Assembly (NCBI GenBank): GCA_951406725.2
Contig: OX597823.1
Span: 47,802,001 to 47,866,000, forward strand
Source of the DNA: Octopus vulgaris
Lineage: Eukaryota
DNA length: 64,000 nucleotides
Reading direction: 5' to 3'
Position numbers and translations under genes: made by a program. The notes under the pieces were generated by a model. The model saw only the letters and a program-made list of their open reading frames with translations, made no database searches and was not told the origin of the DNA. This document shows positions 845-56,725 of the stretch, piece by piece. Numbering within the stretch: the first letter of the stretch is position 1; each line of letters starts with the position of its first letter.

Positions 845-3590
845 TTTAAGTGGTGGTTGTGGGATGTGCAAAAAATAATAACTAAATAGGCTTTAAATCC
901 CACACCAAAATTTTTTTCACGGTAGTAGTGGTGGAGAAATATGTACAGTGATGGGTATGTAATCATGAATTAAAATATGTATGGAGATCAAAGTTGGTTA
1001 TGCGTGCATATTTAGACGTGTTCTGTATTTTGCGATGAAAAAAATTTCTTTCTTTAAACGTTCTTGTAAAGAAATTGTATCTTTCCACTGGTAGAAGGAG
1101 TAAACTGTGAAATTTAGCTTGATGCTACCTGCACATTTCTCTGTGTTCACTTAAAGGAATTTGTCTGTATTGCAAGAACAAGATCTGCTTTTTATGTAGA
1201 GTTGTTCTCCGTCTCAATGTCATACTCATCTGTCCTATATAGTGATGTCCACAACCCAAGCAGGTTATTACATAAATTAAATTCTCAGAGGTACAATTGA
1301 AGTTGGTTTTAATTGTGAACCTCTCTCCTTGTTTGAAAAGGAAATCCGAGCCTTCAAGTAGGTTGGGGCATGTTCCACAGTTTGGGCGTCCACATTTTTT
1401 AACCGTTAGTTTTGTGGTTCTTGTGTAAAGATTTGCATTTGTTAGAAGTCTCTTTAGCGATTTTAGTTGTTTTTTGCATTTGATGAGTTTATGCGTTTTC
1501 AGGATGTTGTTCATTTTTGGGTCTCCAGTTAGTAAAGAAATATTTTGCACAATAGTGTTGCATGTTTCATTGTTTCTAGGTTTGTGGGTTGATATATACA
1601 ATAGTGTTTTGAGATGAGGTGTGGTGTTATGCTTTGTTGTTCTTAGTGTTTTTATGTCTAATTTCTTGGCATGCTAAATTCCATCGTCTATAATAGATGG
1701 TGGATATTGTCAGTTAGTGTTGTTTTGATGTCTTGAAGACGAAGGTCCCAAGTAGTTCTGTCAGATCCTTTTGCCAAATTAAAGGGGATATTCACTTTGA
1801 TGTATTTCAGGTGGTATGAGTTAAAAAGGAGATATTGTTTCGAGTCCGTTGATTTATGATAGATGTTAATTATAATTTGGTTGTTGACTTTTTTGTTATC
1901 ATAATTTCCAAAAATCGGGGCTGTTTTTTGTTGTATTCCATTGTGAATTGAATTGAATGTTACTATTTATATCATTTAGTGTTGATTTGAAGTCCAAAAG
2001 TTTGTCAAAAGTCTCCTTCCAAATGATAAAACAGTCATACAGATATTTTTTCCAGTTTTATCTTATGTAATTGTGAAATGGATAACCATATTTTTGAAGT
2101 GACACTTCATATATGGTGAATTCAAAATAACCCATTATCAGGTTCGTAAGAACAGGGGCTGCTTTCATTCCCATCGTAGTTCCACATTTTCGACGACAGC
2201 ATGTGTCATCAAATAGGAAATAATTGTTCTGAAGTATAAATTTTAAAGATTCAATAATAAAGATCTGATTTATGCATTCCGGGAGTACTTCGGGGTACTT
2301 TTCCAACCAGAATTTGATTGCTTTTATTCCACAGTCATGTGGGATGTTGGTGTAAAGATTGATAACATCGGAGAAAACCAATATTGTCTCTTCATTAATT
2401 GTTTTTGGTAGGTGTTCTAGCATCTCTAAATCATCTCTAATGAAACTTTTGATGTATTTCAGCAAGAGTTTCAGTAGGATGTCTAGAAAATTTCTTAGGC
2501 GGTGGGTTTCACAGGCTGGGCCAGCTATAATGGGCCTTAACTTTAAGTCTTCTGGCGCTTGGACATTTATGTATTTGCCTTGTGATTGTTTGCAGGCTTC
2601 ATTGATTATTTTTCTCTTGTGTATTTTAGGAAGGCCGTAAAAAAAGACTGGGTTTACATTTGAAGTTCGTGATGTAGTCTGTTTTTTTTTCTGTCAGGTC
2701 TTTTCCATGTAGAAGTATTAAGGATGCAAGATTTTTCATTGTTTTTTTGTTGTTTATAGTTTACAACTCTTTCGTAGAAGGCATCATTTTCTAGTATGGA
2801 TAATACTAGGTTTTTGTAGTATTCTGTGTCCATCAGGATTACAGCACTTCCTTTGTCTGCTTCTTTAATTGTCAGGTCTTTGTCCTTTTGTAGTTCAATT
2901 AGATTTTTCCATTCTAGATCGTTGAGGTTCGAATTAATTTTTCGTTTATGGAAAGTATATGGGAAATTTTGGATATGGTATCAGAAGTCATCTAGTGTTT
3001 TATTCCTACTTTTACGTGGAAGGTAATTACTTCTGTTTTTAACCAGTGACTCATCTTCATTGTTGTAATCGCTTAGTGCTTCCGCAAGTTGTAGTTTTCT
3101 GCAGAATTCTGAAATACTGTCTTTAATTTCATTATAGATAGCGTGGGATTGGAGTAAACTTTAATCTTTTAGTTAGTATATTGATTTTTGTTGTAGAGAG
3201 AGCTCTCTTTGATAAATTTATTACTCTGGGTTTCTCCTGTACGTTTTGTTCCAACGTGTGTCCCTGTTTCTCTCCACTTGGTCTAACAAATGTTTACTGT
3301 CATTTGGTTGGTAGAAGTTATTAGTGTTATTATTGTTATTAATTAAATCAGTATTGTTATTCTTATTTATAATATTGGGATTGCTGGGAGGTTGGTGTTG
3401 CTGTCTGGTTGGAAGTACGTGGTTCGGGTTTCTTCGTTGGAATAAATTGTTGGGGTGCTTAATTATGTTTTGGATGCTAGGGAGTTGGTTGTGCTGTCTG
3501 GGTAAATAGGTTGAGAATCCGTAGGTTGAGTTTCTTTGTTGAGGAGTCTCTTGGGGAGAAAAAATTACTACTAACCCTAGGTTGATTTCT
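845..3590 (-). mobile_element. Penelope-like retroelement (Neptune-type), decayed RT + GIY-YIG endonuclease
   Basis: Minus-strand motifs in order: IKEADKGSAVILMD (~2830-2875), FYGLPKIHKR (~2611-2640), LRPIIAGPACETHRL, SDVINLYTNIPH and GTTMGMKAAPVLTNLIMGYFE (ORF 2058-2465), WKKYLYDCF (degenerate YxDD, ~2030-2056), then CGRPNCGTC...FNCTSENLIYVITCLGCGHHYIGQ (ORF 1125-1601). Multiple stops and frameshifts. Confidence 0.92.
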
Positions 3591-4180
3591 TGAACAACAT
3601 CCTGAAAGTGCATAAACTCATCAAATTCAAAAAACAATACAAATCACTAAAGAAACTTCTCACAAATGTGAAGCTTTACACAACAACTGCTAAACAAATG
3701 GTTAAAAAATATGAATGCCCAAACTGTGGAACATGCCCCAGCCTACTTGAAGGCTCGGATTTCCTTTTCAAACAAGGAGAGAAGTTCACAATTAAAACCA
3801 ACTTCACTTGTGCCTCTGAGAACCTAATTTATGTAATAACCTGCTCAGGTTGTGGACATCACTATATAGGACAGACAAGTATGGCATTGAGAGAGAGATA
3901 ACCACTCTACATAAAAAGCAGATTCAGTTTCCACAATACATACAAATTCCATTAAGTGAACACATAGTGAAATGTGCAGGGAACATCAAACCAAATTTCA
4001 CAGTTTACTCCTTCTACCAGTGGAAAGATACAATTTCTTTACAAGAACGTTTAAATAAAGAAAATTTTTTCATTGAAAAATTCAGAAAACGTCTAAATAT
4101 GCACGCATAACCAACTTTGATCTCCATACATATTTTAATTCATGATTACATACCCATCACTGTACATATTTCTCCCCACT
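3591..4180 (+). mobile_element. Inverted duplicate of the Penelope 3' end (GIY-YIG region)
   Basis: ORFs 3590-3901 and 3850-4110 repeat the protein of 1125-1601. DNA from tgaacaacatcctgaaa (3591) is the diverged reverse complement of ~930-1512. Confidence 0.9.
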
Positions 4181-4199
4181 AATCTAGTTTTTCAATTTT

Positions 4200-6420: not shown

Positions 6421-9065
6421 ATACTTTATATATTATTTTATATGGCTATACTTGAAACCAACTGGTTTAGAAACAAAGCATTAAAAATTTCTATATTTTA
6501 CATTTCGTGATATAAATTCTTGTTTTAATGATCTCCCTAGCTTAACTTTTGAAATTTCTGACACTCTTTCTTTACGTTCCCTTGTTATCTCTTCTTAGTT
6601 TTATCATATTATCTACACTTCTGTCTTCACCTCATAATCTGTACTTTCCTTCTCATGTGAGTCTTTTTTCTCATCTTTTAACACCTTCACCTGTTTTGTC
6701 TCTTCCCTCATTCTATGCTTTATCTTCCTTCTACTTTGTAAACATAATATGAAATTTTCTACAATCGAAGCCATAACACTATTCAGAGAGACAACTCCAT
6801 CAGAGAGTTTCTAAAATCCTTGTTGTTATTTGATATCAGATGTGAAGATATCTGATATCTGAACTTTTGACCTTTCTAAACCTGTTGTTCACATTTCAAT
6901 TCCAGTTGAATGACTTAGAGAAAACCGCTCAACAAATCTAAATTCCCTAGCAGGTAACTTGCTCTAAAATCGAACTTAGGTCTTCTACATAAGGTTCACC
7001 TTTGAATTGGCCAGGCATTTTACTTTAGATTTGTAATTGTGTTTATCTTCATTTTCAATGCCCTTCAGCTGACTACTGTTGGTACTTAATCAATAGCTCT
7101 CCTAACAGAACCAGTGACTGTTAATCACTACAGTTGACTGCACTATTTGTTAAGTGACACGATACACAGAGAAGAACTGATACCCACATGGCAAACAGAG
7201 CCATCATCATCAGCAGCAAAACAATAGATGATTTATTGCATACCTAGTTACATACATCACTGTGCAGAGCAAGTACATCTTTTACAAATACATGTCTTCT
7301 TATATGCTTCAACTGCTTTCTCAAACTATATTCAATGAATTCTTACAGATGCAGGGGAATGTCTGGGAAGATCTAGAAGACTATTATGGCTTTAGGGAAT
7401 AATTGCAAAATCGTCATTTACAATTTATTTCGATTTTTTTTTTTTGACTTTCACATTCTTAATTTCTTTTTTTTTTTTACATTGAAGAATATTTCACTAT
7501 TTAACAAAACTAATAGGATTTAGGATTTTATTTCTGTACTTAATTCTTTCTCACACTTCTGCTTCTTTTTTTTTATTCACTCAATGAATTTTTTTTTTTT
7601 AAATATGTAAGAACAACTATTTTTTAATGCTTCCTCTACCTACACACCTAAAGAAATTTAAGCAAGCAAATATAACAATTTATTTATTATTTAAGGATCC
7701 AAAGTTTGGTATTAGTCCACCATAAATACAGTGTAAGTGCAAGTGAGTTTTTATTCTAACTGCAAAAGTGAAAACCTCTAAAATAGAAAGAGAATTAAGA
7801 CAAACACACCATAATTAATATTTATTTAATGATGACAAGAATTTTTGATTATCAAAGTATGAGAATCTGTTGATGCTCATGATAATGTGAACACCAGACA
7901 TCATGTAACTATGATCTTCTATTTGAACAATAATCTTAATTAAACACACAAGAAATATATCAATTGAAATTACATTTATTTTAACATAGGTTAAAGCTTA
8001 TTTCGTTTCATTTATACATGTATTTCTTTTTTATTCTATTCATTTTATATGGCAAACTTTTCTGTCATTTTTAGTGGATAGAAATTCTGAGCTTCCTTGA
8101 CAGTTTCTCTTCCCATACTGTCTATGATATGAAAACAGACAAGTTATATTTCTTCAGATGTATTTTCATCAATTTCTTTTTTGACCATAGAGCTCTCCTA
8201 AAAGATAGTCATCTATTTTTGTTATATCTATTTATTTTGCCAAAGTTTCATGACTACCAGACATATTTTTATTCAACCAAAAATATATAAAATTGGAAAA
8301 TGGAATTTATTATTGAATTCCAATAAAAATCACTTTGGATCACTGAGAAAATACTGGATATTGTAAAATAAGACACACACACATATACATACACACACAA
8401 AAAAAAATCGTTACAAACATAAGAAGAAAGAATTGTTAAAAGTTCTCAACTTGAATCATAGCTATAATGCTTTGGTTGATAGTCATTTTATGTTGCATAA
8501 AACAGAAGGCAGAACTAACTACTAACTTTGACGGCTATAGTACTTCTCTGATTGCTATCCAAGCATGACTATTTCTGCTTGACTACTATGATCTAACAGT
8601 AATACAGTTTTAGTGATGATATTTTCAGTATTTTCTGTATCCATTCCAAGGGTGTCATTATGGTGGAACATTAATTGAAAGCAATCTTTAAATATTGGTC
8701 AGTGAAAAAAAAGTAAAAAATAAAAAACTAAAATAATATTGAACATTTATTTTCTTTATTTTTATTTCACCTAAAATTTTATTTCATTTTAGTATAGCAC
8801 AGACAAGATAGTATTCAGAGAGTAGTTTTTAAATAATTTTATATTTTTCTAACTTCTAACCATTATAAGATGAAGTTAAAACAGTATTTTGTAAGTCAGT
8901 AGACTGATGCAAGCAAATTAAAGTATCTTGCACCAAACATAAGGTATTAGGCATGAGTCTGGAATCTTTAATCATTCAACCTAGATTTTGGCTGTGGTTA
9001 TTATAGGAAATAAAGCTTAGACAGCTCTCACAAACCTTGATCTATATATATATATATATATATAT

Positions 9066-9780
9066 TCTTTTATTCTTTTACTTGTTTCAGTCATTTGACT
9101 GTGGCCATGCTGGAGCACCACCTTTTAGTTGCACAAATCAACCACAGGACTTATTCTTTGTAAGCCACTTACAATTATTCTATTGGCCACTTTTACCGAA
9201 TTGCTGAGTTACAGGAACTTAAACACAGCAACATTGGTTTTCAAGTGATGTGGGGGGGGATACAGACAACACAAAATATATACATATATATGACAGGCTT
9301 CTTTCAGTTTCCATCTACCAAGTCCACTTACAAGGCTTTGGTAGACCCAAGGCTATAGTAGAAGATACTTGCCCAAGGTGCCATGAAGGGGCTCTGAACC
9401 TGGATTGATGTGGTTGGGAAGCAAGCTACTTTTATTCATTTCATTTGCCATAGAGGCAGTACAAAGATGAGTAGCTTAGTGGGCTGGACAAGACATTGAT
9501 GAGGTGAATGATAATGATACAAGATGATAAGGATGGGAGAAGACAGAAAGCACCCGCCGACCCTCTGCTTCTCTATAACATTGTTCTTTTAATAAAACAC
9601 ATATTGAGGTAATAACTCTCTTACAATTTACAATGTTTTATAATTTCTTTGGACTAACAGGTCCATTACCATTAAAAAAACAATTAGACACATATTGAGG
9701 TGATTAACCTCTTACCTCACGTCCCCGATTAATTCTCTTGCAGCCTGCAGGCATCTTACCACACAGCCACATCTGCACCT
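9066..9780 (-). mobile_element. SINE family A interrupted in its head by an insert at 9431-9754
   Basis: Body ends ...gggaagcaagctact (9430) and resumes cttaccacacagccac (9755). Confidence 0.8.
9431..9754 (-). mobile_element. Unclassified structured insert, probable 5'-truncated non-LTR 3' UTR (copy 1)
   Basis: Homologous to 48560-48963 over ~300 bp; ends gaataaa directly before agtagcttgc of the SINE. Confidence 0.7.
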
Positions 9781-10011
9781 AAAACGCTTACGACACAGCC
9801 ACACCTGCATCTAAAACACTTACTACACAGCCACACCTGCACCTAAAACACTTACCACACAGCTACATCTGCACCTAAAACACTTACCACACAGCCACAC
9901 CTGCACCTAAAACACTTACCTTACATCCACACCTGCACCTAAAACACTTACCATACAGCCACACCTGCACCTAAAACACATACCACACAGCTACATCTGC
10001 ACCTAAAACAC
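9756..10011. repeat. 32-bp minisatellite, ~8 copies
   Basis: Unit ttaccacacagccacacctgcacctaaaacac; aaaac recurs at 9781, 9813, 9845, 9877, 9909, 9941, 9973 and 10005. Confidence 0.92.
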
Positions 10012-10387
10012 TATTTGATCTCCAATTTAATGTGGAGGTTGTGTTAGAAAACAGAATTCTGCATTATATATCGTGAGAGGATTTCCAGTAAAGACGTGGT
10101 GAATAAAAGAAGTTTTTGTCAAATGAATTGACCCCAGAACTTATTTTATAAAGCCTGATACTTATTTTGTCGGTCTCTTTTGCCAAACCACTAAGTAACA
10201 GGGGACATAAACACACCAACAAAAGTTCTCAAGTGGTGGTGCTGGGGGGGGGTGACAAACGGAGACACAAACACATACATATATGTGTGTGTGTTTTGTG
10301 TTGTGTTTGCCCCCCACCCCCAGCATGGCCACAGTCTAATGGCTGAAACAAGTAAAAGATAAAAGATAAAAGGTATTTGTATATATA

Positions 10388-11042: not shown

Positions 11043-11120
11043 TATATACATATATAATAGAAATATTAAAATTACTAAGTCTCTCTAAAAGAGATTACGG
11101 CAGCGTTACTGGAAATTAAC

Positions 11121-13393
11121 TTTTCTTTCTACATGCCACCCTAAAAACATCGCCATTCCCGCCCGTTTCTCTAAAGTTCAACCTTCGCACCGTTTAAATG
11201 TTTTGAACTTATAACCACCAATCTGCTTTGCTTTCCTTTTCTTTCTACATGCCACCCTAAAAACATCGCCATTCCCGCCCGTTTCTCTAAAGTTCAACCT
11301 TCGCACCGTTTAAATGTTTTGAACTTATAACCACCAATCTGCTTTGCTTTCCTTTTCTTTCTACATGCCACCCTAAAAACATCGCCATTCCCGCCCGTTT
11401 CTCTAAAGTTCAACCTTCGCACCGTTTAAATGTTTTGAACTTATAACCACCAATCTGCTTTGCTTTCCTTTTCTTTCTACATGCCACCCTAAAAACATCG
11501 CCATTCCCGCCCGTTTCTCTAAAGTTCAACCTTCGCACCGTTTAAATGTTTTGAACTTATAACCACCAATCTGCTTTGCTTTCCTTTTCTTTCTACATGC
11601 CACCCTAAAAACATCGCCATTCCCGCCCGTTTCTCTAAAGTTCAACCTTCGCACCGTTTAAATGTTTTGAACTTATAACCACCAATCTGCTTTGCTTTCC
11701 TTTTCTTTCTACATGCCACCCTAAAAACATCGCCATTCCCGCCCGTTTCTCTAAAGTTCAACCTTCGCACCGTTTAAATGTTTTGAACTTATAACCACCA
11801 ATCTGCTTTGCTTTCCTTTTCTTTCTACATGCCACCCTAAAAACATCGCCATTCCCGCCCGTTTCTCTAAAGTTCAACCTTCGCACCGTTTAAATGTTTT
11901 GAACTTATAACCACCAATCTGCTTTGCTTTCCTTTTCTTTCTACATGCCACCCTAAAAACATCGCCATTCCCGCCCGTTTCTCTAAAGTTCAACCTTCGC
12001 ACCGTTTAAATGTTTTGAACTTATAACCACCAATCTGCTTTGCTTTCCTTTTCTTTCTACATGCCACCCTAAAAACATCGCCATTCCCGCCCGTTTCTCT
12101 AAAGTTCAACCTTCGCACCGTTTAAATGTTTTGAACTTATAACCACCAATCTGCTTTGCTTTCCTTTTCTTTCTACATGCCACCCTAAAAACATCGCCAT
12201 TCCCGCCCGTTTCTCTAAAGTTCAACCTTCGCACCGTTTAAATGTTTTGAACTTATAACCACCAATCTGCTTTGCTTTCCTTTTCTTTCTACATGCCACC
12301 CTAAAAACATCGCCATTCCCGCCCGTTTCTCTAAAGTTCAACCTTCGCACCGTTTAAATGTTTTGAACTTATAACCACCAATCTGCTTTGCTTTCCTTTT
12401 CTTTCTACATGCCACCCTAAAAACATCGCCATTCCCGCCCGTTTCTCTAAAGTTCAACCTTCGCACCGTTTAAATGTTTTGAACTTATAACCACCAATCT
12501 GCTTTGCTTTCCTTTTCTTTCTACATGCCACCCTAAAAACATCGCCATTCCCGCCCGTTTCTCTAAAGTTCAACCTTCGCACCGTTTAAATGTTTTGAAC
12601 TTATAACCACCAATCTGCTTTGCTTTCCTTTTCTTTCTACATGCCACCCTAAAAACATCGCCATTCCCGCCCGTTTCTCTAAAGTTCAACCTTCGCACCG
12701 TTTAAATGTTTTGAACTTATAACCACCAATCTGCTTTGCTTTCCTTTTCTTTCTACATGCCACCCTAAAAACATCGCCATTCCCGCCCGTTTCTCTAAAG
12801 TTCAACCTTCGCACCGTTTAAATGTTTTGAACTTATAACCACCAATCTGCTTTGCTTTCCTTTTCTTTCTACATGCCACCCTAAAAACATCGCCATTCCC
12901 GCCCGTTTCTCTAAAGTTCAACCTTCGCACCGTTTAAATGTTTTGAACTTATAACCACCAATCTGCTTTGCTTTCCTTTTCTTTCTACATGCCACCCTAA
13001 AAACATCGCCATTCCCGCCCGTTTCTCTAAAGTTCAACCTTCGCACCGTTTAAATGTTTTGAACTTATAACCACCAATCTGCTTTGCTTTCCTTTTCTTT
13101 CTACATGCCACCCTAAAAACATCGCCATTCCCGCCCGTTTCTCTAAAGTTCAACCTTCGCACCGTTTAAATGTTTTGAACTTATAACCACCAATCTGCTT
13201 TGCTTTCCTTTTCTTTCTACATGCCACCCTAAAAACATCGCCATTCCCGCCCGTTTCTCTAAAGTTCAACCTTCGCACCGTTTAAATGTTTTGAACTTAT
13301 AACCACCAATCTGCTTTGCTTTCCTTTTCTTTCTACATGCCACCCTAAAAACATCGCCATTCCCGCCCGTTTCTCTAAAGTTCAACCTTCGCA
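11121..13393. repeat. Perfect 116-bp tandem array, ~19.6 copies
   Basis: Unit ttttctttctacatgccacc...ctttgctttcc starts at 11121, 11237, ... 11701, ... 13325. No variant seen between copies. Confidence 0.97.
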
Positions 13394-21373: not shown

Positions 21374-23597
21374 TATAGCTAGCTATTTACAGCCTCTAAA
21401 TCAGATGGTTGAGCTAAACTGGTAAATCCAATTTGCTAACCCATGCTAGCATGGAAAGCGGACGTTAAACGATGATGATGATGAATACAAAACTAGAATT
21501 TAATGAAGTAATTACTGGTTCTAAATTTTGGCACAAGGCCAGTGAGTTTGGGAGAGGGGGTAAGCTGATTACCTCGACCCCAGTGCTCAACTGATACTTA
21601 TTTTATCAACCCCAAAAGGATGAAATGCAGCCTCAGCAGAATTTGAACTCGGAACATAAAGAGGGACAAAATGCCATTGAACATTTTGCCTGGCATGCTA
21701 ACAATTCTGCCAGCTCATCACCTTTTTACTGAGTTAATTATTAATACACTAAACAAGGTGAAAGCGTGGCTGTGTGGTGGAAGTTTGCTTCTAAACCACA
21801 TGATTCAGAGTTCAATCCCACTGCATGGCAACTTGGGCAAATGTCTTCTACTATAACCTTTGGGCTACTAAAGCTTTGTGAGTGGATATGGTAAAGAGAA
21901 ACTGAAAAAAGTCTATTATATATATATATATATATATCAACAATTGCAGCATGGAAGGTGTTTATAAGCCATTTTGTGCCATCTTTGTGTTTGTGCTCAT
22001 CTCTCACCACCACATGACAACCAGTGTTGTTTTGTTCACATCCGTATAAAAAAAATTTTTTTTAATTGATGGAATAAATACTGAATTTAAAAGAGAAAGA
22101 TAAGTAGTAGGGTCAGTTTGTTTGACTAAACCCTTTAAGGCAGGGCCCAAGCATGGCTGCAGTGTAATGACTGAAACAAGTAAAAGGTAAAAAAAAAAAA
22201 AGAGCCCCAGATTTGAATAACCTGAATTGTATGACAAGGTATATCTTGTTTTCTGGGCATCATTGTAGAGTTCTTTATATTTGTATTGAATACTCTATGG
22301 CACAGGTTAATAATCATTTCATCCTTTTGAGGGCAGAAGATTAAGCTTTATGGTATTTAGCTTTGCTGGTCTGAACATCTCTATGATGATTATGTAGGCA
22401 GGGAGTCTATGTAATAAAAGAAAAAAAAAGCACCTTTTCACTCAATAATATACCTTTCTAAGCAAAAATTAATCTTATTCTTGTTCAAAGGAGCTGAAGT
22501 GAGTCTCATTCCCCTGCATGATTTCCCAGGAAAATATGGACAAAAGTGTATGTTTTAGGTTGTAATTTTTCTTCTTGGTGACAATATGAAACTTTTTATC
22601 ATTTTTAAAGTAAGAAAAGTAAAAACCCAAAGCCTTAAAATAAGGAACAAAATATAAATTGCTGGTGTATGACCTTCCAATACCATCTAAAATGGCAATA
22701 GCTTTGTTCTGAGTTTAGGGAAGTATATACATAAATACCCGTTTCTCAGCACTAACAGCATCAGAAATGCACTTGAATACACAACAAGCTGTCAGACAAT
22801 GCAAATATCAAATGAAAGAGATTCACAAGTAAGTTTATTTCCCTAAATAGATTAGCAAGAGAAATAGTGACTCTTGATGAAGAGACTACTGTCAGTGGTG
22901 GAAATATTCTTTAGTCAAGTAAACAACAGATAGATGAAGCAGCAAAAGTACAATAGATAAGGAATGTAATGAGTGGAAGAAATTCAAAGAACCTTCTTCC
23001 AATCCTTATTACTTTATGTTTTTCTTATGCATAGAAAATAGGTTGAATAAGAATATACTGAAATAGGATTGTAAATAATGGAATAAAAGATAGAGAAAAG
23101 AGTAAGGATATATGGAAACACCTTAAATATATTCTTCTGAATTTTTTTTTTATTAGCATTTAAAACTCTCAGACATTGCATTGGTTCATCTTTATTCTTT
23201 CTTTCACTGCTATCATTGATTACTTTAGATGTTACTGCCGCTAGCTTAGCAATCTTTGTTGTATTTACCTTAGAGGTTCTCACATATAAAAGATAAATTT
23301 ACTGAGTTGTCAAATCACATTTGGTTTACTGTTTCTTTCTTTTGTCTTTCATATCAAACTTGATGTTTTAATGTTAACATAGGCTGGATGGATCTGAAAA
23401 TTTTTAGTTCAAGTGTTTTACTGTGGGATGCCTATTTGTGAGAATCAAAAAAAGAAAAAAGAAAAGGAAAAAAACTTAAGCAAATTGTAAACGATGATTT
23501 TGTAATAATTCTCTAAAGCCATAGTAATCTTATAGATTTTGCCAGACATTTAAAGATTATAAGGTTTAACATTGAATATTTATTTACACATAAACAC

Positions 23598-23867
23598 AGG
23601 TGTGGCTGTGAGGTTAAGGAGCTTGCTTACCAACTATGTGGTCTTGGTATATGTCTCTTCTATAGCCCTGGGCTGGCCAAAGCCTTGAGAGTAGACTTGG
23701 TAGACGGAAAGTGAAAGAAGTCCACTTGCTTATGAACCGCATGGTTCCGGGTTCAGTCCTACTGTGTGACACCTTGGGCAAGAGTCTTCTACTATAACCT
23801 CGGGCTGACCAAAGCCTAGTGAGTGGATTTGGTAGATGGAAACTGAAAGAAGCCCATTATATATATG

Positions 23868-23917
<50 letters not shown>

Positions 23918-24190
23918 CGTTTGCGTGTCTGTGACTGTCTCCACAACATTGCTTGACAACCAATGCTGGTGTGTTTACATCCCCGTAACTTAGTGGTTCG
24001 GCAAAAAACACCAATAGAATAAGTACTAGGTTTACAAAGAATAAGTCCTTTGGCCGATTTGCTCGACTAAAAGGTGGTGCTCCAGCATGGCCACAGTCAA
24101 ATGACTGAAACAAGTAAAAGAGCAAAAGAGTAAAAGAGTATACACATATATACGTGTGTATGTGGTGTGCATGTGTGAGTGTATGGGTGA

Positions 24191-34060: not shown

Positions 34061-34114
<54 letters not shown>

Positions 34115-34664
34115 TTGGAAGCTATGCCAACATTATGGAATAACAACAGAAAAAAGATGGTATAGGCACACACCAGAAAAGGTCACAGAAAACGAGAAAG
34201 CAACCATACTCTGGGATATGCCGATACACACAGATAGAGAAATTAAGGCCAACAGACCAGATATAGTTGTCAGAGATCATGAAGAAAAAAATGCTTTCTA
34301 ATTGATGTATCAATACCGGCAGATGACAACGTGTCTCTAAAAGAAATGGAGAAACTCTCAAAATACAAAGACCTGGAAATAGAGGTAACTAGAATGTGGA
34401 ATCTGAAAACAGAAACAATTCCTATCATAGTAGGTGCATTAGGCATGATAAAAAAATATTCAGACAAATACATAACAAAAACACCAGGACTTACAAACAC
34501 ATATAACATACAGAAAATTGCACTACTAGGCACTGCACACATCCTACGCAGAACACTTTCCATACAATAACCATCAGAGCATCACAACAAATCACAGCAC
34601 ATACCCAAGGCACACAGAGCTGCGCTCGGTAGTGAAGTGAAAGCACGCTATAAAAATAAAACTA

Positions 34665-34667
<3 letters not shown>
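34115..34667 (+). mobile_element. R4/Dong-clade non-LTR retrotransposon 3' fragment (restriction-like endonuclease) in (TAA)n
   Basis: WKLCQHYGI..KRWYRHTPEKVTENEKATILWDMPIHTDREIKANRPDIVV, a 1-nt shift in an A-run, then FLIDVSIPADDNVSLKEMEKLSKYKDLEIEV..PIIVGALG..QKIALLGTAHILRR*. Flanked by (TAA)n, the known Dong target. Confidence 0.9.
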
Positions 34668-34724
<57 letters not shown>

Positions 34725-36759: not shown

Positions 36760-37390
36760 ATGCAAGCTGAAAGTGAACAATCAAATCATTAAGCAGGTAT
36801 TATCCTTCCAAGCTACCTTGGAACTTTGATTACAGAAGACAAGATATATGAAGGAGATCAAAAGACGAACCGTACTCTGAGCATCAAGACTGGGATCTGT
36901 TTATTGAACTGCTGTGTCTACCCTGTGTTAATGTATGGAAGTGAAACGTGGTCTATAACATCAGAAATGAGATGGTGCTTGGGGAGCTGTTGTTGTTAAG
37001 CAACAAGATGGGTAAGGGTGATTAGGTGATGGCCTAGGGCTTAGGGGCGGGGGACCCCAGACCTTGAAAAAAAAAATGGTCGTCTTGTTGTAGTCAAGGG
37101 CTCTTCGTTGACGTCCGGCACCACTGGGAGGTGGCCCTCAATGTCGTTTGAAATGGAGATCTCCAGGTCCAAATTCTTGAACAGCTGCTTGGAGGGCTGT
37201 GAAATGTGGTTCTTAAGAAGGATATTGATTATAACATGGAGAAAGTGTCTAATGAAGAAATGTTAGACTGAGCTGTGGTAAATAGGGGAACTGCTTTATA
37301 AGTGGAACTGTTACAGAAAACAAAGAAGAGAGAATTGTGGCTGGACATGATCGCCTATGTCCTACACTCTGGACATGGCAGCTAAAGAAG
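36760..37390 (+). mobile_element. Decayed RTE-clade LINE 3' fragment
   Basis: YLGTLITED..EIKRR, LLNCCVYPVLMYGSETWSIT, then after an insertion EMWFLRRILIITW. Confidence 0.75.
36991..37185 (-). mobile_element. Short 5'-truncated retro-insert with (CAA)n tail nested in the RTE
   Basis: Flanked by 15-bp near-duplicates tgcttggggagctgt (36976-36990) and tgcttggagggctgt (37186-37200). The RTE reading resumes after it. Confidence 0.7.
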
Positions 37391-47340: not shown

Positions 47341-48525
47341 GTGCCTCTTTTGTTAATAAATAGTCTTGGATCTGTTTTTACTTCTCCACCTGATTCCAGA
47401 TGATGCTGTAATATGGGGAACTGTAGAATGAGGAACGAAGTGCGATTCCTCTACCTCTCAGGATCCCATTCGGTGTCAACTGTCCAATTAGGTTAAATCC
47501 AAGAAGTGCCTCACCCATCTAACCTATCACTAGAACCTATAGCAAATTCCCTCCCTAGCTTGTACATCTACATGTGTCCATCCACTCCCACTGCCCAAGG
47601 CCAAAGAGGCCCACATAAGCACTACTTCAGCCCATGTGACCTTGCTCACGTCTTCCTCTTCAGGTAGGGCCTTTCAGCCATTGACATCACTGACCCTTTC
47701 CACCCAGTTCACCTCATCCTCCACAGATGCTGTAACTACAACATCAAGCACAATCATTTGTGACTGGTGTTTCATTGTATTTATAGTTATTGTTATCCTT
47801 TAACCCATACTCTGACCTCTGATCAAAGCTGTGTACACTGTCATTTATTCGTACAGTGTATATCTAGGACTATATTTTCCAACATGTATCTTTTACCATT
47901 TATCTTTTACTTGTTTCAGTCATTAGTTTGTGGCCATGCTAGGGCACCGTCTTGAAGAATTTTTAGACAAATAAGTCGACCCCCAATACGTTTTTTAAGC
48001 CTGATACTCATTCTGTCAGTCTCTTTAACCAAACTACTAATGTTACAGGATGTAAACAAACCACCAGTTGTCAAGAAGCAGAGGAGGGGAGAAACAGTCA
48101 CATACAGATGCATACACAAACACATATACATATATATGTATTTATGTATGTGTGTGTGTATGTATGTATGTATGTATGTATGTATGTATGTATGTATGTA
48201 TGTATGTATATTCAGTTTCATCTACCAAATCCACTAACAAAGCTTTGGTCAGTTCAAGGCCATAGCAGAAGACCCTTTCCAATGGTGCCATGCAGTGGGA
48301 CTGAACCTGCAACCATGTGATTGGGGAGCAAACTTCTTACCACACAGCCGCAGCTGTGCCTATGTATGGTATATTTTTTTAGACAATAGGTTGTAATTTG
48401 AGAGAATTTTCACTGCTGTTTCAATGTAGAGGCTACCTTGTTACTTTATAATTTAGTTTTATTAGCCTGAAGTTCATTTTAGATCTCCCAAACTTCTCTC
48501 AACAGGTCTTGTTGTTTAATCCCAT

Positions 48526-49340
48526 AGGCGTAAGAGTGGCTGTGTGGTAAGTAGCTTGCATAGGGCTTGATCTTGAATGAGGCATGGGGGTTGGTGGAGT
48601 ATACGGGCACAAGCATTGTTGGGGAGGAATAGGGACAAGAGGTTGAAAAGCCTCAGTATTATAATGTTTATTGTATAATGCTTAATGCTTAATGCATGTT
48701 ATTGTGTTTAAGAGGCTTAACGCCCCAATTCTTAAATGGACTATTAGTCCAAAAATTATAAAACTGAAGTAAGAGGTACATTACTTCGTTTTGTCTTTTT
48801 CTGTACAAAAAGAAGAGAATAATGTTTTAGAGAAGCAAAAAATCGGTGGATGTTTTTGTCTTCTCCCATTAATATCATTCTTTTCATCATTCACCTCATC
48901 AATGTCTTTGTCCAGCTCGCAAGCTACTCTGTATCATGCCTTTATGGCGAAATTTTTGAAATAAAGTATCTTGTTTACGAACCACATGGTTCCAGGTTCA
49001 GTCCCACTGCATGGCACCTTGGGCAAGTGTCTTCTACTATAGCCTCAGGCTAACCAAAGCCTTGTGAGTGGATTTGGTAGACGGAAACTGAAAGAAGCCC
49101 GTCGTATATATGTATATATGTACGTAAGTATGCATGTGTGTGTGTATATGTTTGTGTGTCTGTGTTTGTCCCCCCAACATCGCTTGACAACCGATGCTGG
49201 TGTGTTTACGTCCCCATAACTTAGCAGTTCGGTAAAAGACACTGATAGATTAAGTACTAGGCTTACAAAGAATAAGTCCTGGGGTCGATTTGTTCGACTA
49301 AAGGCGATGCTCCAGCATGGCCAAAGTCAAATGACTGGAA
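48526..49340 (+). mobile_element. SINE family A interrupted in its head by an insert at 48560-48963
   Basis: Head ggcgtaagagtggctgtgtggtaagtagcttgc; resumes aagtatcttgtttacgaaccacatggttcc at 48964. Confidence 0.85.
48560..48963 (+). mobile_element. Unclassified structured insert, probable 5'-truncated non-LTR 3' UTR (copy 2)
   Basis: 10-bp TSD-like pair aagtagcttg (48549-48558) / aagtatcttg (48964-48973); homologous to 9431-9754. Confidence 0.72.
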
Positions 49341-50853
49341 CAAGTAAAAGAGTAAAGAGTCTTATTGATCAAACCAATCTGATGTCCTAAAAGTATTTCT
49401 AACTATAAACATCTTGTCATTTCTTCAGGCGTCGTCTATCTACGCCTACCATACCCAATGTTCTTTTTCTCTTTTTATGTAAGTAGAAATAGTATTAGTT
49501 CCATAGAGCATTGATTGGTTGCTATTTCTAGCAGGCTGAGTGACCATGTAGAAGTACTCACATTGCTGCTTTTGTTGTTGTTGTTGTTGCTGTTGTCACA
49601 TACTTCTTGTATCACTGCAACTGCTGCTGTCATTGCAGAAGCTGGTTATGCTGACAGCATAGTAGTTGTTATTTCATTTTAGTGTTCATTTTTTTATTAT
49701 TGTTTTTTGTTTCTACTGTTGTTTAACCCCAGGTCAGCCCTGACTCAGCAAATCTATGTTCAAAGACATTCCAGCCCATGACCTTTAAAGGGTGTTAGTG
49801 CAGTTGCTGTGTGTTTTTACATTATATATGTATTATATATGTAATGTATATGTATTATGTCTTTTATCTTTTACTTGTTTCAGTCATTAGCCGGTGGCCA
49901 TGCTGGAGCACCATGTAATAATCAAATTACATACTATGCACTTGAATTTGTTTTTGTTATTGCATATGGTTCTCTGATCCTGAGAAAAATTGTCTTGCAT
50001 GAGACCAGTCTGTGGAGCAAAAAGGTTGTTTTAAAATGTAAGCAGAACTACATCATCTGATATGGTCTCTGTTCAAGATGGTGAGGAAATGAACCCAAAC
50101 CACAGGGTTACCAAACAAGCTTCTGAATGATGCCACTATTACAATTCATATTTTTACTTGCTCCCATATTCTCAACTCCATACAGACTCTAACATACTGT
50201 CGCAACCCTATAGGAATGTCACTTATGAAGGGAGAAACATTCTTCAAAAATTCGATAATTTACTTAAAGGAGGTCAAACCATATTTTAAAATACTATTTT
50301 ACATTTTAACTATTCCAAAAAAGAAAAGCTACAATGAAAGATTACCTCCCCACCTTGTCATTCTCATGAAAAAAGAACAAACAAACAAGAAAACCTGTTG
50401 TTCATTATAACAAACAATAACAACACCAACAACTTTTGCTTTAGTGAAAGGATAGGATTCAATTGTCCAAATTTCCAATCAACTCAGTTTGAATAAACAA
50501 ATATTTTATTACTTTAAAAAAACAAAGTTTAAAACAAAAAAATTTCAATATAATTAATCAGGATATTTGATTGGTTTGAATAAAGAAAATAAAAAATGGG
50601 GTAGTAGAAAAGTTCAGCCTTTGAACTAATTAAAATATGAAAATAATCTCCATACCAAAATGTCACTACAGCGACAACAACACAGATGTAAAAACTTATA
50701 TAAATTGTTAATTTTTCAACAATGTTATAGATACGAAAAAATGTTCATCTGGAAATAAAAATATAAGAATTGATAATGTATAAAGTTGTAATAGATATGG
50801 ATAATTTAGATGGGTTTGTTGTTATTGCTGTTGTTATTATTATTATTATTATT

Positions 50854-55625: not shown

Positions 55626-56725
55626 CAAGGGTTGGACAAAATAATGGAAACCCCTTAAAATTTCAAACAAATTTATTTTAATATGGAGCAGGACCGCCTT
55701 TGGCAGTAATTACCGCTTGAATTCTACAAGATATGGACTCAGACAAAGTTTTTATTGTTTCCAAAGGAATTTTTATCAATTCTTCAGCTAAAACGGTCTC
55801 CATTTCTTGTAGTGATGATGGTGGAAGATATCGACTCCTTACTTGTTTTTCTAAAATGCACCATAAATGTTCAACAATATTGAGATCTGGGGACTGTGGT
55901 GGCCAGATAAGATGTTCAACTTCACTAGAATGTTACTCGTACCATTCAGGAACAACTTTAGCTATGTGAATTGGTGCATTATCATCCTGAAAGATTGCGT
56001 TTTCCTCAAGAAAACAGTTCCGCAACCATAGGATGAATTTGATCAGATAAAATGCTTAAATAGTCTTGACTATTAATTCTGCCATGAAGGGAAACCATTG
56101 GGCCGGCGGATTTCGAAGATATAAGGTAAAGGATGACTCGTCTAAGAAAATAAATTCTTCCATTGCTCTAGCGACCAATTCTGTAGGTTTTTTCTCCACT
56201 CTAAAAGCTTTGCAACGTTTGGTTTTGAAAGTAGTGGTTTTCTTATTGCAGCTCTCCCGTGAAAACTGGATTTGTGCAGTTCCCGGCAAACAGTTTTTGT
56301 GGCAACTGGGTTCTTGAGGTGGTCATTAAGCTCTGCAGTAATTTTGGGAGCTGTACTTTTGTGATCCTTTCTAACAATTCGTCCGGCGGTCCCTATCTGA
56401 AAGTTTTGGGTTTTTTCCGAAGTTTTGTTTCGACGAGGAGGTTTTTCCCTCTTTCTCAAAGGCTGTCTTTATTTTCGAGACAGTACTTCTTGATACACCA
56501 TACGAGCACCAACAATTTGACCTCTTTGAAAGTCTGATAGATCTGTCATTTTAATGAGTTTTAATTACATTTTTCTTATATCTGAAAAGAAACAGCAATT
56601 TTAGCAAAACATATTAAGCGACGCTAATAATAAATCAACAAAACAAAAACAAATAGGCTTTTGACGGTTTTATAGATATTTCAAAATTATGATGCTAGGT
56701 ATTTCCACTATTTTGTCCAGCCCCT

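What the first reader, a model, noticed from the sequence alone, without database searches (positions are those of the whole stretch)
48549..48973. Candidate SINE-targeting, sequence-specific retroelement: two independent insertions at the same SINE nucleotide
Seen: this insert and the one at 9431-9754 (minus) are homologous, sharing aatggac..ttagtccaaa..attataaaac, aatgtt.tagagaagca, tgtcttctccca, atcattcacctcatcaatgtctt(t)gtccagc and tatggc..aataaa. They are clearly diverged, so this is not a segmental duplication. Each lies in a different family-A SINE, in SINE-sense orientation, with the same 3' junction (...aataa(a)|AGTAGCTTG, just after GTGTGGTA). The 5' junctions differ (10-bp versus ~3-bp duplication) and so do the lengths. 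Known: fixed 3' and variable truncated 5' junctions are typical of target-primed reverse transcription by site-specific non-LTR elements (R2, Utopia/NeSL, Tx1-clade Keno/Dewa), which target multicopy RNA genes. Inference: a family using the tRNA-derived head of an abundant SINE as its safe-harbour target, possibly disabling the SINE promoter on insertion.
Basis: partly seen in the sequence, partly recalled or inferred. Interest (0 to 1): 0.8.

Follow-up and report, generated by a model that had tools for sequence, protein, structure and literature searches.

The report
Retroelement landing inside SINE heads
Two old, shortened copies of one jumping gene sit at exactly the same base of two different copies of an abundant short repeat (a tRNA-derived SINE), which suggests a retrotransposon that aims at this repeat's promoter region, a known habit with an unusual target.

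Summary
Inserts at 48559-48963 (+) and 9754-9432 (-) are homologous (82% over 207 columns) and are the only two copies in the window. Both end at GGT|AAG just behind the A box of a tRNA-like SINE head, sense-oriented, with 10-bp versus about 3-bp duplications and 5' ends about 37 nt apart. The two hosts belong to different SINE subtypes, and the inserts carry far more indels than their hosts (17/270 versus 5/341, p=0.002), which argues against one chimeric unit being copied. Public contigs from three species labels show a multicopy family; one further head-to-truncated-copy joint uses the same 5' site, and two other copies run into the SINE. The genome-wide share of copies at this site was not measured, a raw-read run gave only 2 reads, and no RT or endonuclease was found, so the clade is open. 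Best reading: 3' ends of a sequence-specific non-LTR retrotransposon. Closest known: planarian LIN15_SM (same D-loop edge of tRNA-Arg genes) and Tx1/Tx1-Mar (target other transposons). This scan has noted similar LINE-in-SINE cases on other DNA several times.

The parts
48527..48548 (+). Host SINE head (tRNA-like, subtype A1), with A-box-like TGGCTGTGTGG at 48537-48547
   Evidence: A-box label from recalled Pol III consensus
48549..48558 (+). Left target-site duplication (10 bp)
48559..48963 (+). Insert 1: 5'-truncated 3' end of a multicopy retroelement (405 bp); first ~7 nt (48559-48565) are not matched by the other copies listed and resemble 48523-48528
   Evidence: records 1, 2, 18 start aligning at 48566-48567
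48564..48632 (+). Possible last codons of an ORF ending at TAG 48630-48632 (other copies show TAA, or TAT followed by TGA); unconfirmed, no homologue found
   Evidence: translation, table 3; negative
48639..48654 (+). Small hairpin GAGGUU-GAAA-AGCCUC; counterpart within 9696-9713 of insert 2
   Evidence: (z -3.9 and -1.9)
48737..48751 (+). Hairpin with UGGAC/GUCCA stem kept in both inserts, loop differs
   Evidence: z -3.95 and -2.35
48830..48865 (+). Long hairpin GAGAAG...CUUCUC shared by both inserts (15 pairs: 1 two-sided change, 4 one-sided, none broken); lies in the part best kept across species
   Evidence: (local z -2.5 and -1.1)
48964..48973 (+). Right target-site duplication (10 bp, one mismatch) = fixed 3' junction
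48974..49360 (+). Rest of host SINE 1 (B-box-like GGTTCAG from 48995, central simple repeat, shared tail)
9755..10012 (-). 32-bp x 8.1 tandem array of 6 bp flank plus SINE head, ending at the 5' junction of insert 2; last unit (9779-9755) is the host head (subtype A2) with the 3-bp left duplication AAG at 9757-9755
9432..9754 (-). Insert 2: shorter, diverged copy of the same element (323 bp); 5' end maps to about 48596 of insert 1
9063..9431 (-). Right duplication (AAG 9431-9429) and rest of host SINE 2

Best explanation
The two inserts are dead, 5'-truncated 3' ends (mostly 3' UTR with several RNA hairpins) of a non-LTR retrotransposon family whose endonuclease recognises the sequence around GGT|AAG(T/A)AGCTTG, just behind the A box of this tRNA-derived SINE. 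Shown: homology, same base, same orientation, different hosts, different duplication lengths and 5' ends, a multicopy family in related species. Inferred: the enzyme nicks the bottom strand at the fixed site, reverse transcription primes there on the element's RNA 3' end (recognised through the hairpins), stops early, and a less exact top-strand cut 3-10 nt downstream gives the variable duplication. Inferred: the very abundant SINE works as a harmless landing pad, and the insert probably silences the host's Pol III promoter by pushing the B box 350-450 nt away. The clade (Tx1/APE or an RLE clade) is not determined.
For: Same 3' base in both, and no copy elsewhere in the window, against 9 empty sites listed. 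Duplications of 10 and about 3 bp, 5' ends about 37 nt apart. Hosts differ at subtype-diagnostic sites seen in intact copies: head GGCG..GAGTGG versus GGTGCAGGTG, body TTTAC versus CTTCCC, tail GAGTAA versus GAATAA; the host pair shares 6 derived sites against 16 for a true close pair. Inserts have 17 gap openings in 270 columns, hosts 5 in 341 (Fisher p 0.002); summed contig depth on the insert 907-23,769 (X1), 3,207-35,279 (X2), 0-5,302 (X16, mainly the 3' part), against 9-45, 161-235 and 21-52 on the flank bins 48422-48505; depth peaks near the 3' end; in X2 one contig joins the head at 48559 to element position 48829; X2 records 23 and 24 (27 and 9 differences, so other copies) run through the 3' junction to 48978 and 48968; no loose-end cluster at the 3' junction among the 18 rows shown. 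Precedent: LIN15_SM inserts in sense just behind the D-loop GG of tRNA-Arg genes (PMC4640811 S6 Fig).
Against: Only two full junction pairs were seen whole. The share of genomic copies at this site was not measured: 380 loose-end rows and 30,258 pieces were not shown. The raw-read run X22 laid only 2 reads, both under 90% alike, from 1,934 Mb, which at face value does not fit hundreds of copies (perhaps strict seeding; unexplained). The tool warns that contig depth is not copy number. Host-host identity (300/364, 82%) equals insert-insert identity (82%), and the tree leaves the two hosts in an unresolved polytomy. Both 5' ends lie within about 40 nt of each other, near the putative stop codon. 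No RT, APE or RLE could be tied to the element. Insert 2 as a whole folds no better than shuffles (z -0.37). X2 record 20 stops aligning at 48800 with 166 letters left over, so not every copy keeps the 3' end.
Confidence: 0.62

Rival explanations
1. Same mechanism, but the real target is a true tRNA gene family; SINE heads are hit only because they still resemble it.
For: tRNA-specific RLE elements exist, and LIN15_SM uses the same D-loop edge in several tRNA-Arg genes (PMC4640811 text and S6 Fig). YURE families hit a U2-derived satellite as a relic of U2 targeting.
Against: The duplicated target bases (AAGTAGCTTG) are SINE sequence; no tRNA gene or Rfam match lies in the window to compare. 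SINE heads are vastly more abundant (head-bin depth 1.4-10.7 million).
Confidence: 0.15
2. One ancient insertion made a chimeric SINE-plus-insert unit that was then copied as a whole (hitchhiking); differences at the 5' junction are later deletions, for example linked to the tandem array at 9755-10012.
For: Equal identity of hosts and inserts (82% each); hosts not separated in the tree; both hosts carry T at the fourth target base, seen in 3 of 9 empty sites; similar insert lengths.
Against: Hosts differ at four to five subtype-diagnostic sites at both ends; indel excess in the inserts; three long contigs of other copies do not share the 5' junction of insert 1 (records 1, 2, 18); T runs of 4-7 inside the inserts and a 350-450 nt A-to-B gap make Pol III read-through unlikely (inference).
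Confidence: 0.12
3. An ordinary LINE with only a weak motif preference (for example for T/AAG), or gene conversion between SINE copies, gave two hits at one base.
For: Windows are selected for coincidences; X2 record 20 and X1 record 3 have long unmatched ends.
Against: Chance about 1e-4 to 5e-4 for the second hit; extra joints at the same site in other runs; conversion would homogenise the hosts, which differ at both ends.
Confidence: 0.07
4. A non-autonomous Dada-type DNA transposon, which also targets tRNA A boxes.
For: Dada families insert in the A-box region of tRNA genes (PMC8869645, PMC3706591; passages).
Against: Dada makes fixed 6-7 bp duplications at tRNA nucleotides 8-13 and has defined termini; here the duplications are 10 and about 3 bp, lie behind the A box, and the 5' ends differ.
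Confidence: 0.03

Closest known systems
LIN15_SM (R5/LIN lineage, NeSL-related RLE non-LTR element of planaria), also LIN25_SM and NeSL-1_TV
   Same: Sense-oriented insertion inside a tRNA-type sequence; LIN15_SM 3' junction lies just behind TGGCCTAATGGATAA, the same D-loop edge as GGT|AAG here; short A-rich end without a poly(A) tract (PMC4640811 S6 Fig part 1 and passages).
   Different: Targets are real tRNA genes; the one LIN15_SM 5' junction shown duplicates about 40 bp; here the target is a SINE head, duplications are 3-10 bp, and no RLE ORF is known.
Tx1 clade elements that target other transposons: Tx1L in Tx1D (Xenopus), Tx1-Mar and SINEU in Mariner-N4_AMi, Tx1-9_AMi in Harbinger, Tx1-8_Crp/Tx1-4_AMi in LTR elements
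   Same: One mobile element uses a fixed site in another as landing pad; 5'-truncated copies used to show independent insertion; the hitchhiking rival was considered there too (PMC4494074 passages). L1-Tx1 is plentiful in Octopus vulgaris (80 families, 13 recently active; PMC13282606).
   Different: Hosts there are DNA transposons or LTR elements, not a SINE promoter; APE endonuclease and Tx1 RT are not shown here.
Dada DNA transposons (tA, tY, tL and others)
   Same: Target the A-box region of tRNA genes.
   Different: DDE transposons with fixed 6-7 bp duplications at nucleotides 8-13 and fixed ends.
Dewa and Keno (Tx1 clade), Utopia/YURE (NeSL-related)
   Same: Sequence-specific non-LTR elements on small-RNA genes or their derived repeats; precise 3' and variable 5' junctions.
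   Different: Targets are the tRNA-Leu spacer or U2 snRNA sequences, not a tRNA-SINE head.

Membership tests
Sequence-specific non-LTR retrotransposon (functional class) | Fixed 3' junction at one base of a multicopy target | tested here: met
   2 of 2 copies in the window; two further contigs run into the SINE
Sequence-specific non-LTR retrotransposon (functional class) | Variable 5' truncation and variable target alteration | tested here: met
   10 versus about 3 bp duplication, 5' ends about 37 nt apart, third joint 48559 to 48829
Sequence-specific non-LTR retrotransposon (functional class) | More than 20% of all copies flanked by the target (criterion of PMC4494074) | tested here: inconclusive
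   No genome held; read-laying tables dominated by SINE heads
Sequence-specific non-LTR retrotransposon (functional class) | Full-length copy encoding RT and endonuclease | tested here: inconclusive
   Only about 23 possible last codons present; no homologue; no Pfam hit in the insert ORFs scanned
Tx1 clade | APE endonuclease and RT grouping with Tx1 | not testable with these tools
   No coding region available; a W-x-x-V resemblance of the last codons to Tx1 ends is recalled, not tested
NeSL/R5-LIN (RLE) lineage | C-terminal zinc finger plus PD-(D/E)xK endonuclease, RT grouping with NeSL | not testable with these tools
   No coding region available; only the target position resembles LIN15_SM
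Dada DNA transposons | Fixed 6-7 bp duplication at tRNA nucleotides 8-13 and fixed termini | tested here: not met
   Duplications of 10 and about 3 bp behind the A box; 5' ends differ
Chimeric SINE subfamily | One shared 5' junction, one host subtype, even divergence along the unit | tested here: not met
   equal substitution-level identity of hosts and inserts remains compatible with it

The most novel reading that the evidence does not exclude
A long-lived autonomous LINE lineage, shared by several related species, has specialised on the Pol III promoter of the genome's most abundant SINE: it inserts strictly between the A and B boxes, silences each SINE copy it hits, and so acts as a parasite of a parasite with hundreds of thousands of landing sites; its endonuclease would recognise a tRNA D-loop-derived motif no longer present in any real tRNA gene.
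Probability: 0.25. Interest if true: 0.65.

Novelty: new variant of a known kind. Interest (0 to 1): 0.42.

Why it matters
Target-specific LINEs are known for rRNA, tRNA, snRNA genes, microsatellites and DNA transposons; a family fixed on a SINE head would add a target class and show how tRNA-gene targeting can shift onto tRNA-derived repeats. It would give a new sequence-specific endonuclease, a set of nested insertions for dating SINE waves, and a way in which one retroelement switches off another. If it is only relaxed tRNA targeting or hitchhiking, it is an ordinary repeat-annotation matter.

Tried and rejected
No whole genome is held, so the decisive flank count could not be made. A 21-nt shared motif hit 3 metagenome contigs; similarity stops at 24-25 nt, so these are chance. 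A gapped shared motif found 0 matches in viral and prokaryote contigs. The possible ORF end, read through its stops as X, found no candidate among 78-2000 aa or 24-77 aa proteins; phmmer over 1.84 billion representatives gave 2 hits, both internally repetitive proteins unrelated to retroelements, rejected. Pfam on 81 of the 234 stop-to-stop frames listed gave nothing on the inserts; a read-through scan of larger parts of the window and an ESM Atlas look-up were not obtained, so a decayed partner fragment elsewhere in the window is not excluded. Rfam and ARAGORN found nothing in the window. Three DNA words (two SINE, one insert) occur in 0 papers. The Dong/R4-like fragment at 34113-34670 and the Penelope at 926-4181 share no DNA with the inserts and were rejected as partners. 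My recollection that YURE targets tRNA-Arg was wrong: the paper says U2-derived satellite. The host tree did not resolve the two hosts.

Full report
Setting. The window is 35% GC, without tRNA genes or Rfam matches, and full of one tRNA-like SINE and simple repeats. That the organism is an octopus is my recollection of this SINE's sequence and comes from no call. No genome is held.

Observation. Insert 1 spans 48559-48963 (+) between AAGTAGCTTG (48549-48558) and AAGTATCTTG (48964-48973). Insert 2 spans 9754-9432 (-) between two AAG. Their 3' 220 bp align at 170 of 207 columns (score 192; best of 300 shuffles 53). The 5' parts are weakly homologous (2 of 2000 shuffles), and the motif AAGAGG-N5-9-CCTCA occurs exactly once in each insert and nowhere else in the window, which maps the 5' end of insert 2 about 37 nt inside insert 1 (an internal repeat allows a second register, about 110-120 nt inside). 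No third copy exists in the window. Intact SINEs align to both bodies from position 23, so the 3' junction is the same base, GGT|AAG, within the 1-2 nt blur of the A run. One search lists 9 empty sites plus the left junction of insert 1; one search shows three more diverged heads. A second random hit on that base and strand has a chance of 1e-4 to 5e-4, computed after the fact.

Are the two events independent? The hosts differ at sites that separate intact copies into two subtypes, in the head, the body and the tail. They share 6 derived sites, against 16 for the close pair 59551/24995. The tree of 14 bodies does not resolve them, and host-host identity is 82%, like the inserts: this part does not discriminate. 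Indels do: 17 gap openings in 270 insert columns against 5 in 341 host columns (p 0.002; simple-repeat middles of the hosts were left out, and the 5' insert alignment is ambiguous). The duplications differ (10 and about 3 bp).

Other genomes. The run search gave 20 holders in 11 studies, none with half the words. I laid 48380-48992 at 80% likeness on 4 of the 24 runs. Contig depth on the insert is 907-23,769 (X1, organism A), 3,207-35,279 (X2, organism B) and up to 5,302 on the 3' part (X16, organism E), while flank bins show 9-45, 161-235 and 21-52 and single-looking contigs 15-29. The tool warns that this is no copy number; it points to hundreds of copies in several species, against head depths of 1.4-10.7 million. 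The best-kept blocks across species are 48821-48925. One X2 contig joins the head at 48559 to element position 48829, as expected of another, shorter insertion with the same top-strand cut (an internal deletion is possible). X2 records 23 and 24, which are other copies, cross the 3' junction for 15 and 5 bases. Records 1, 2 and 18 begin to align at 48566-48567, and record 2 has 11 unmatched letters before, so the 5' junction of insert 1 is not general. No loose-end cluster at the 3' junction is among the 18 rows shown, but 380 rows were hidden. Against: the raw-read run X22 laid only 2 reads (under 90% alike) from 1,934 Mb, and X2 record 20 leaves the element at 48800. In X16 the orthologous flank stops aligning at 48516, before the head, so host 1 may be younger than that species split.

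Anatomy. The inserts look like a 3' UTR with several hairpins. Insert 1's 3' 236 nt fold better than all 200 shuffles (z -3.8); insert 2's do not (z -0.4). A 15-pair hairpin at 48830-48865 is kept in both with one two-sided and four one-sided changes (two sequences only); two small hairpins are also shared (segments chosen by eye). A frame at 48564-48629 ends at TAG, where other copies show TAA, or TAT followed by TGA, which hints at an ORF end; no homologue was found. There is no poly(A) tail. The A box stays whole; the B box moves from 32 nt to 447 and 358 nt away and T runs of 4-7 come between. A 32-bp x 8.1 array of flank plus head ends at the 5' junction of insert 2; head-to-head back-joints at 48552-48559 are common in X1 and X2 (table 5c), so head duplication may be a habit of this SINE, or a by-product of cuts at this site; I cannot tell which.

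Mechanism. Fixed 3' end, variable 5' end and variable duplication are the marks of target-primed reverse transcription (established knowledge; described for Utopia and R2 in PMC4640811). I infer a sequence-specific bottom-strand nick at the site behind the A box, priming on the hairpin-bearing 3' UTR, early stop, and a loose top-strand cut 3-10 nt downstream. The enzyme itself was not seen.

Known systems. LIN15_SM of planaria inserts in sense just behind the D-loop GG of several tRNA-Arg genes, the same position (PMC4640811: passages, S6 Fig part 1 of 3 and search hits); a SINEL_SM row stands in the LIN25_SM block of that figure, which I did not read further. Tx1L, Tx1-Mar and Tx1-9_AMi target DNA transposons (PMC4494074, passages). 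Dada DNA transposons hit tRNA A boxes with fixed 6-7 bp duplications (PMC3706591, PMC8869645, passages); this was tested and not met. O. vulgaris holds 80 L1-Tx1 families plus Dong-R4, Hero and R2; parts 1-2 of 3 of PMC13282606 report no target specificity, and its supplement has no hit for 'target' or 'nested'; its sequence library is on Zenodo and could not be seen. PMC3747384 and PMC4758252 (passages) added only that octopus tRNA-derived SINEs were described by Ohshima and Okada 1994 (not read). Nine paper searches listed no report of a LINE aimed at a SINE head or of this family; Repbase, Dfam and subscription journals were not searchable, so this is weak.

Earlier notes of this scan describe LINE copies at one SINE base in other genomes; no look-alike sequence was on file. 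They gave the Tx1-Mar lead, which I checked in the paper; they are not evidence for this locus.

Verdict. Real feature; most likely a sequence-specific non-LTR retrotransposon using a SINE head as target (0.62; 0.77 with the relaxed-tRNA variant of the same mechanism). Known kind, unusual target, clade and genome-wide strictness open. Interest 0.42.

Noticed in passing
window 11120-13393: 116-bp tandem array, 19.6 copies with 100% matches: a very young satellite or an assembly artefact.
   Followed up: no
window 9755-10012, and joints at 48552-48559: Tandem duplication of SINE head plus a few flank bases; head-to-head back-joints ending at the same stretch as the insertion site recur in runs X1 and X2 with depth 300-1200.
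   Followed up: partly
window 34113-34670 (+): 3' end of an RLE-type LINE (Dong/R4-like by recalled C-terminal motif) set in (TAA)n on both sides; a second, minus-strand fragment near 51.3-51.6 kb.
   Followed up: no
window 926-4181: Penelope-like element: RT fragment (Pfam RVT_1, E 2e-4, below cut-off), GIY-YIG-like frame (recalled motif) and a 590-bp inverted duplication at 90% identity.
   Followed up: no
window 55681-56468 (-): Tc1-type transposase fragments (DDE_3, HTH_Tnp_Tc3_2).
   Followed up: no
window about 36900-37300 (+): Decayed RTE-like LINE end (motifs recalled, seen in a printed translation).
   Followed up: no
window 23597-24132 (+): Two SINE copies joined: an internally deleted copy followed by a body that starts at the CTTG of the target site.
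   Followed up: no
window 48559-48564: The first bases of insert 1 repeat the six bases just before and at the start of the host head (48523-48528); could be a short template jump at the 5' junction or chance.
   Followed up: partly
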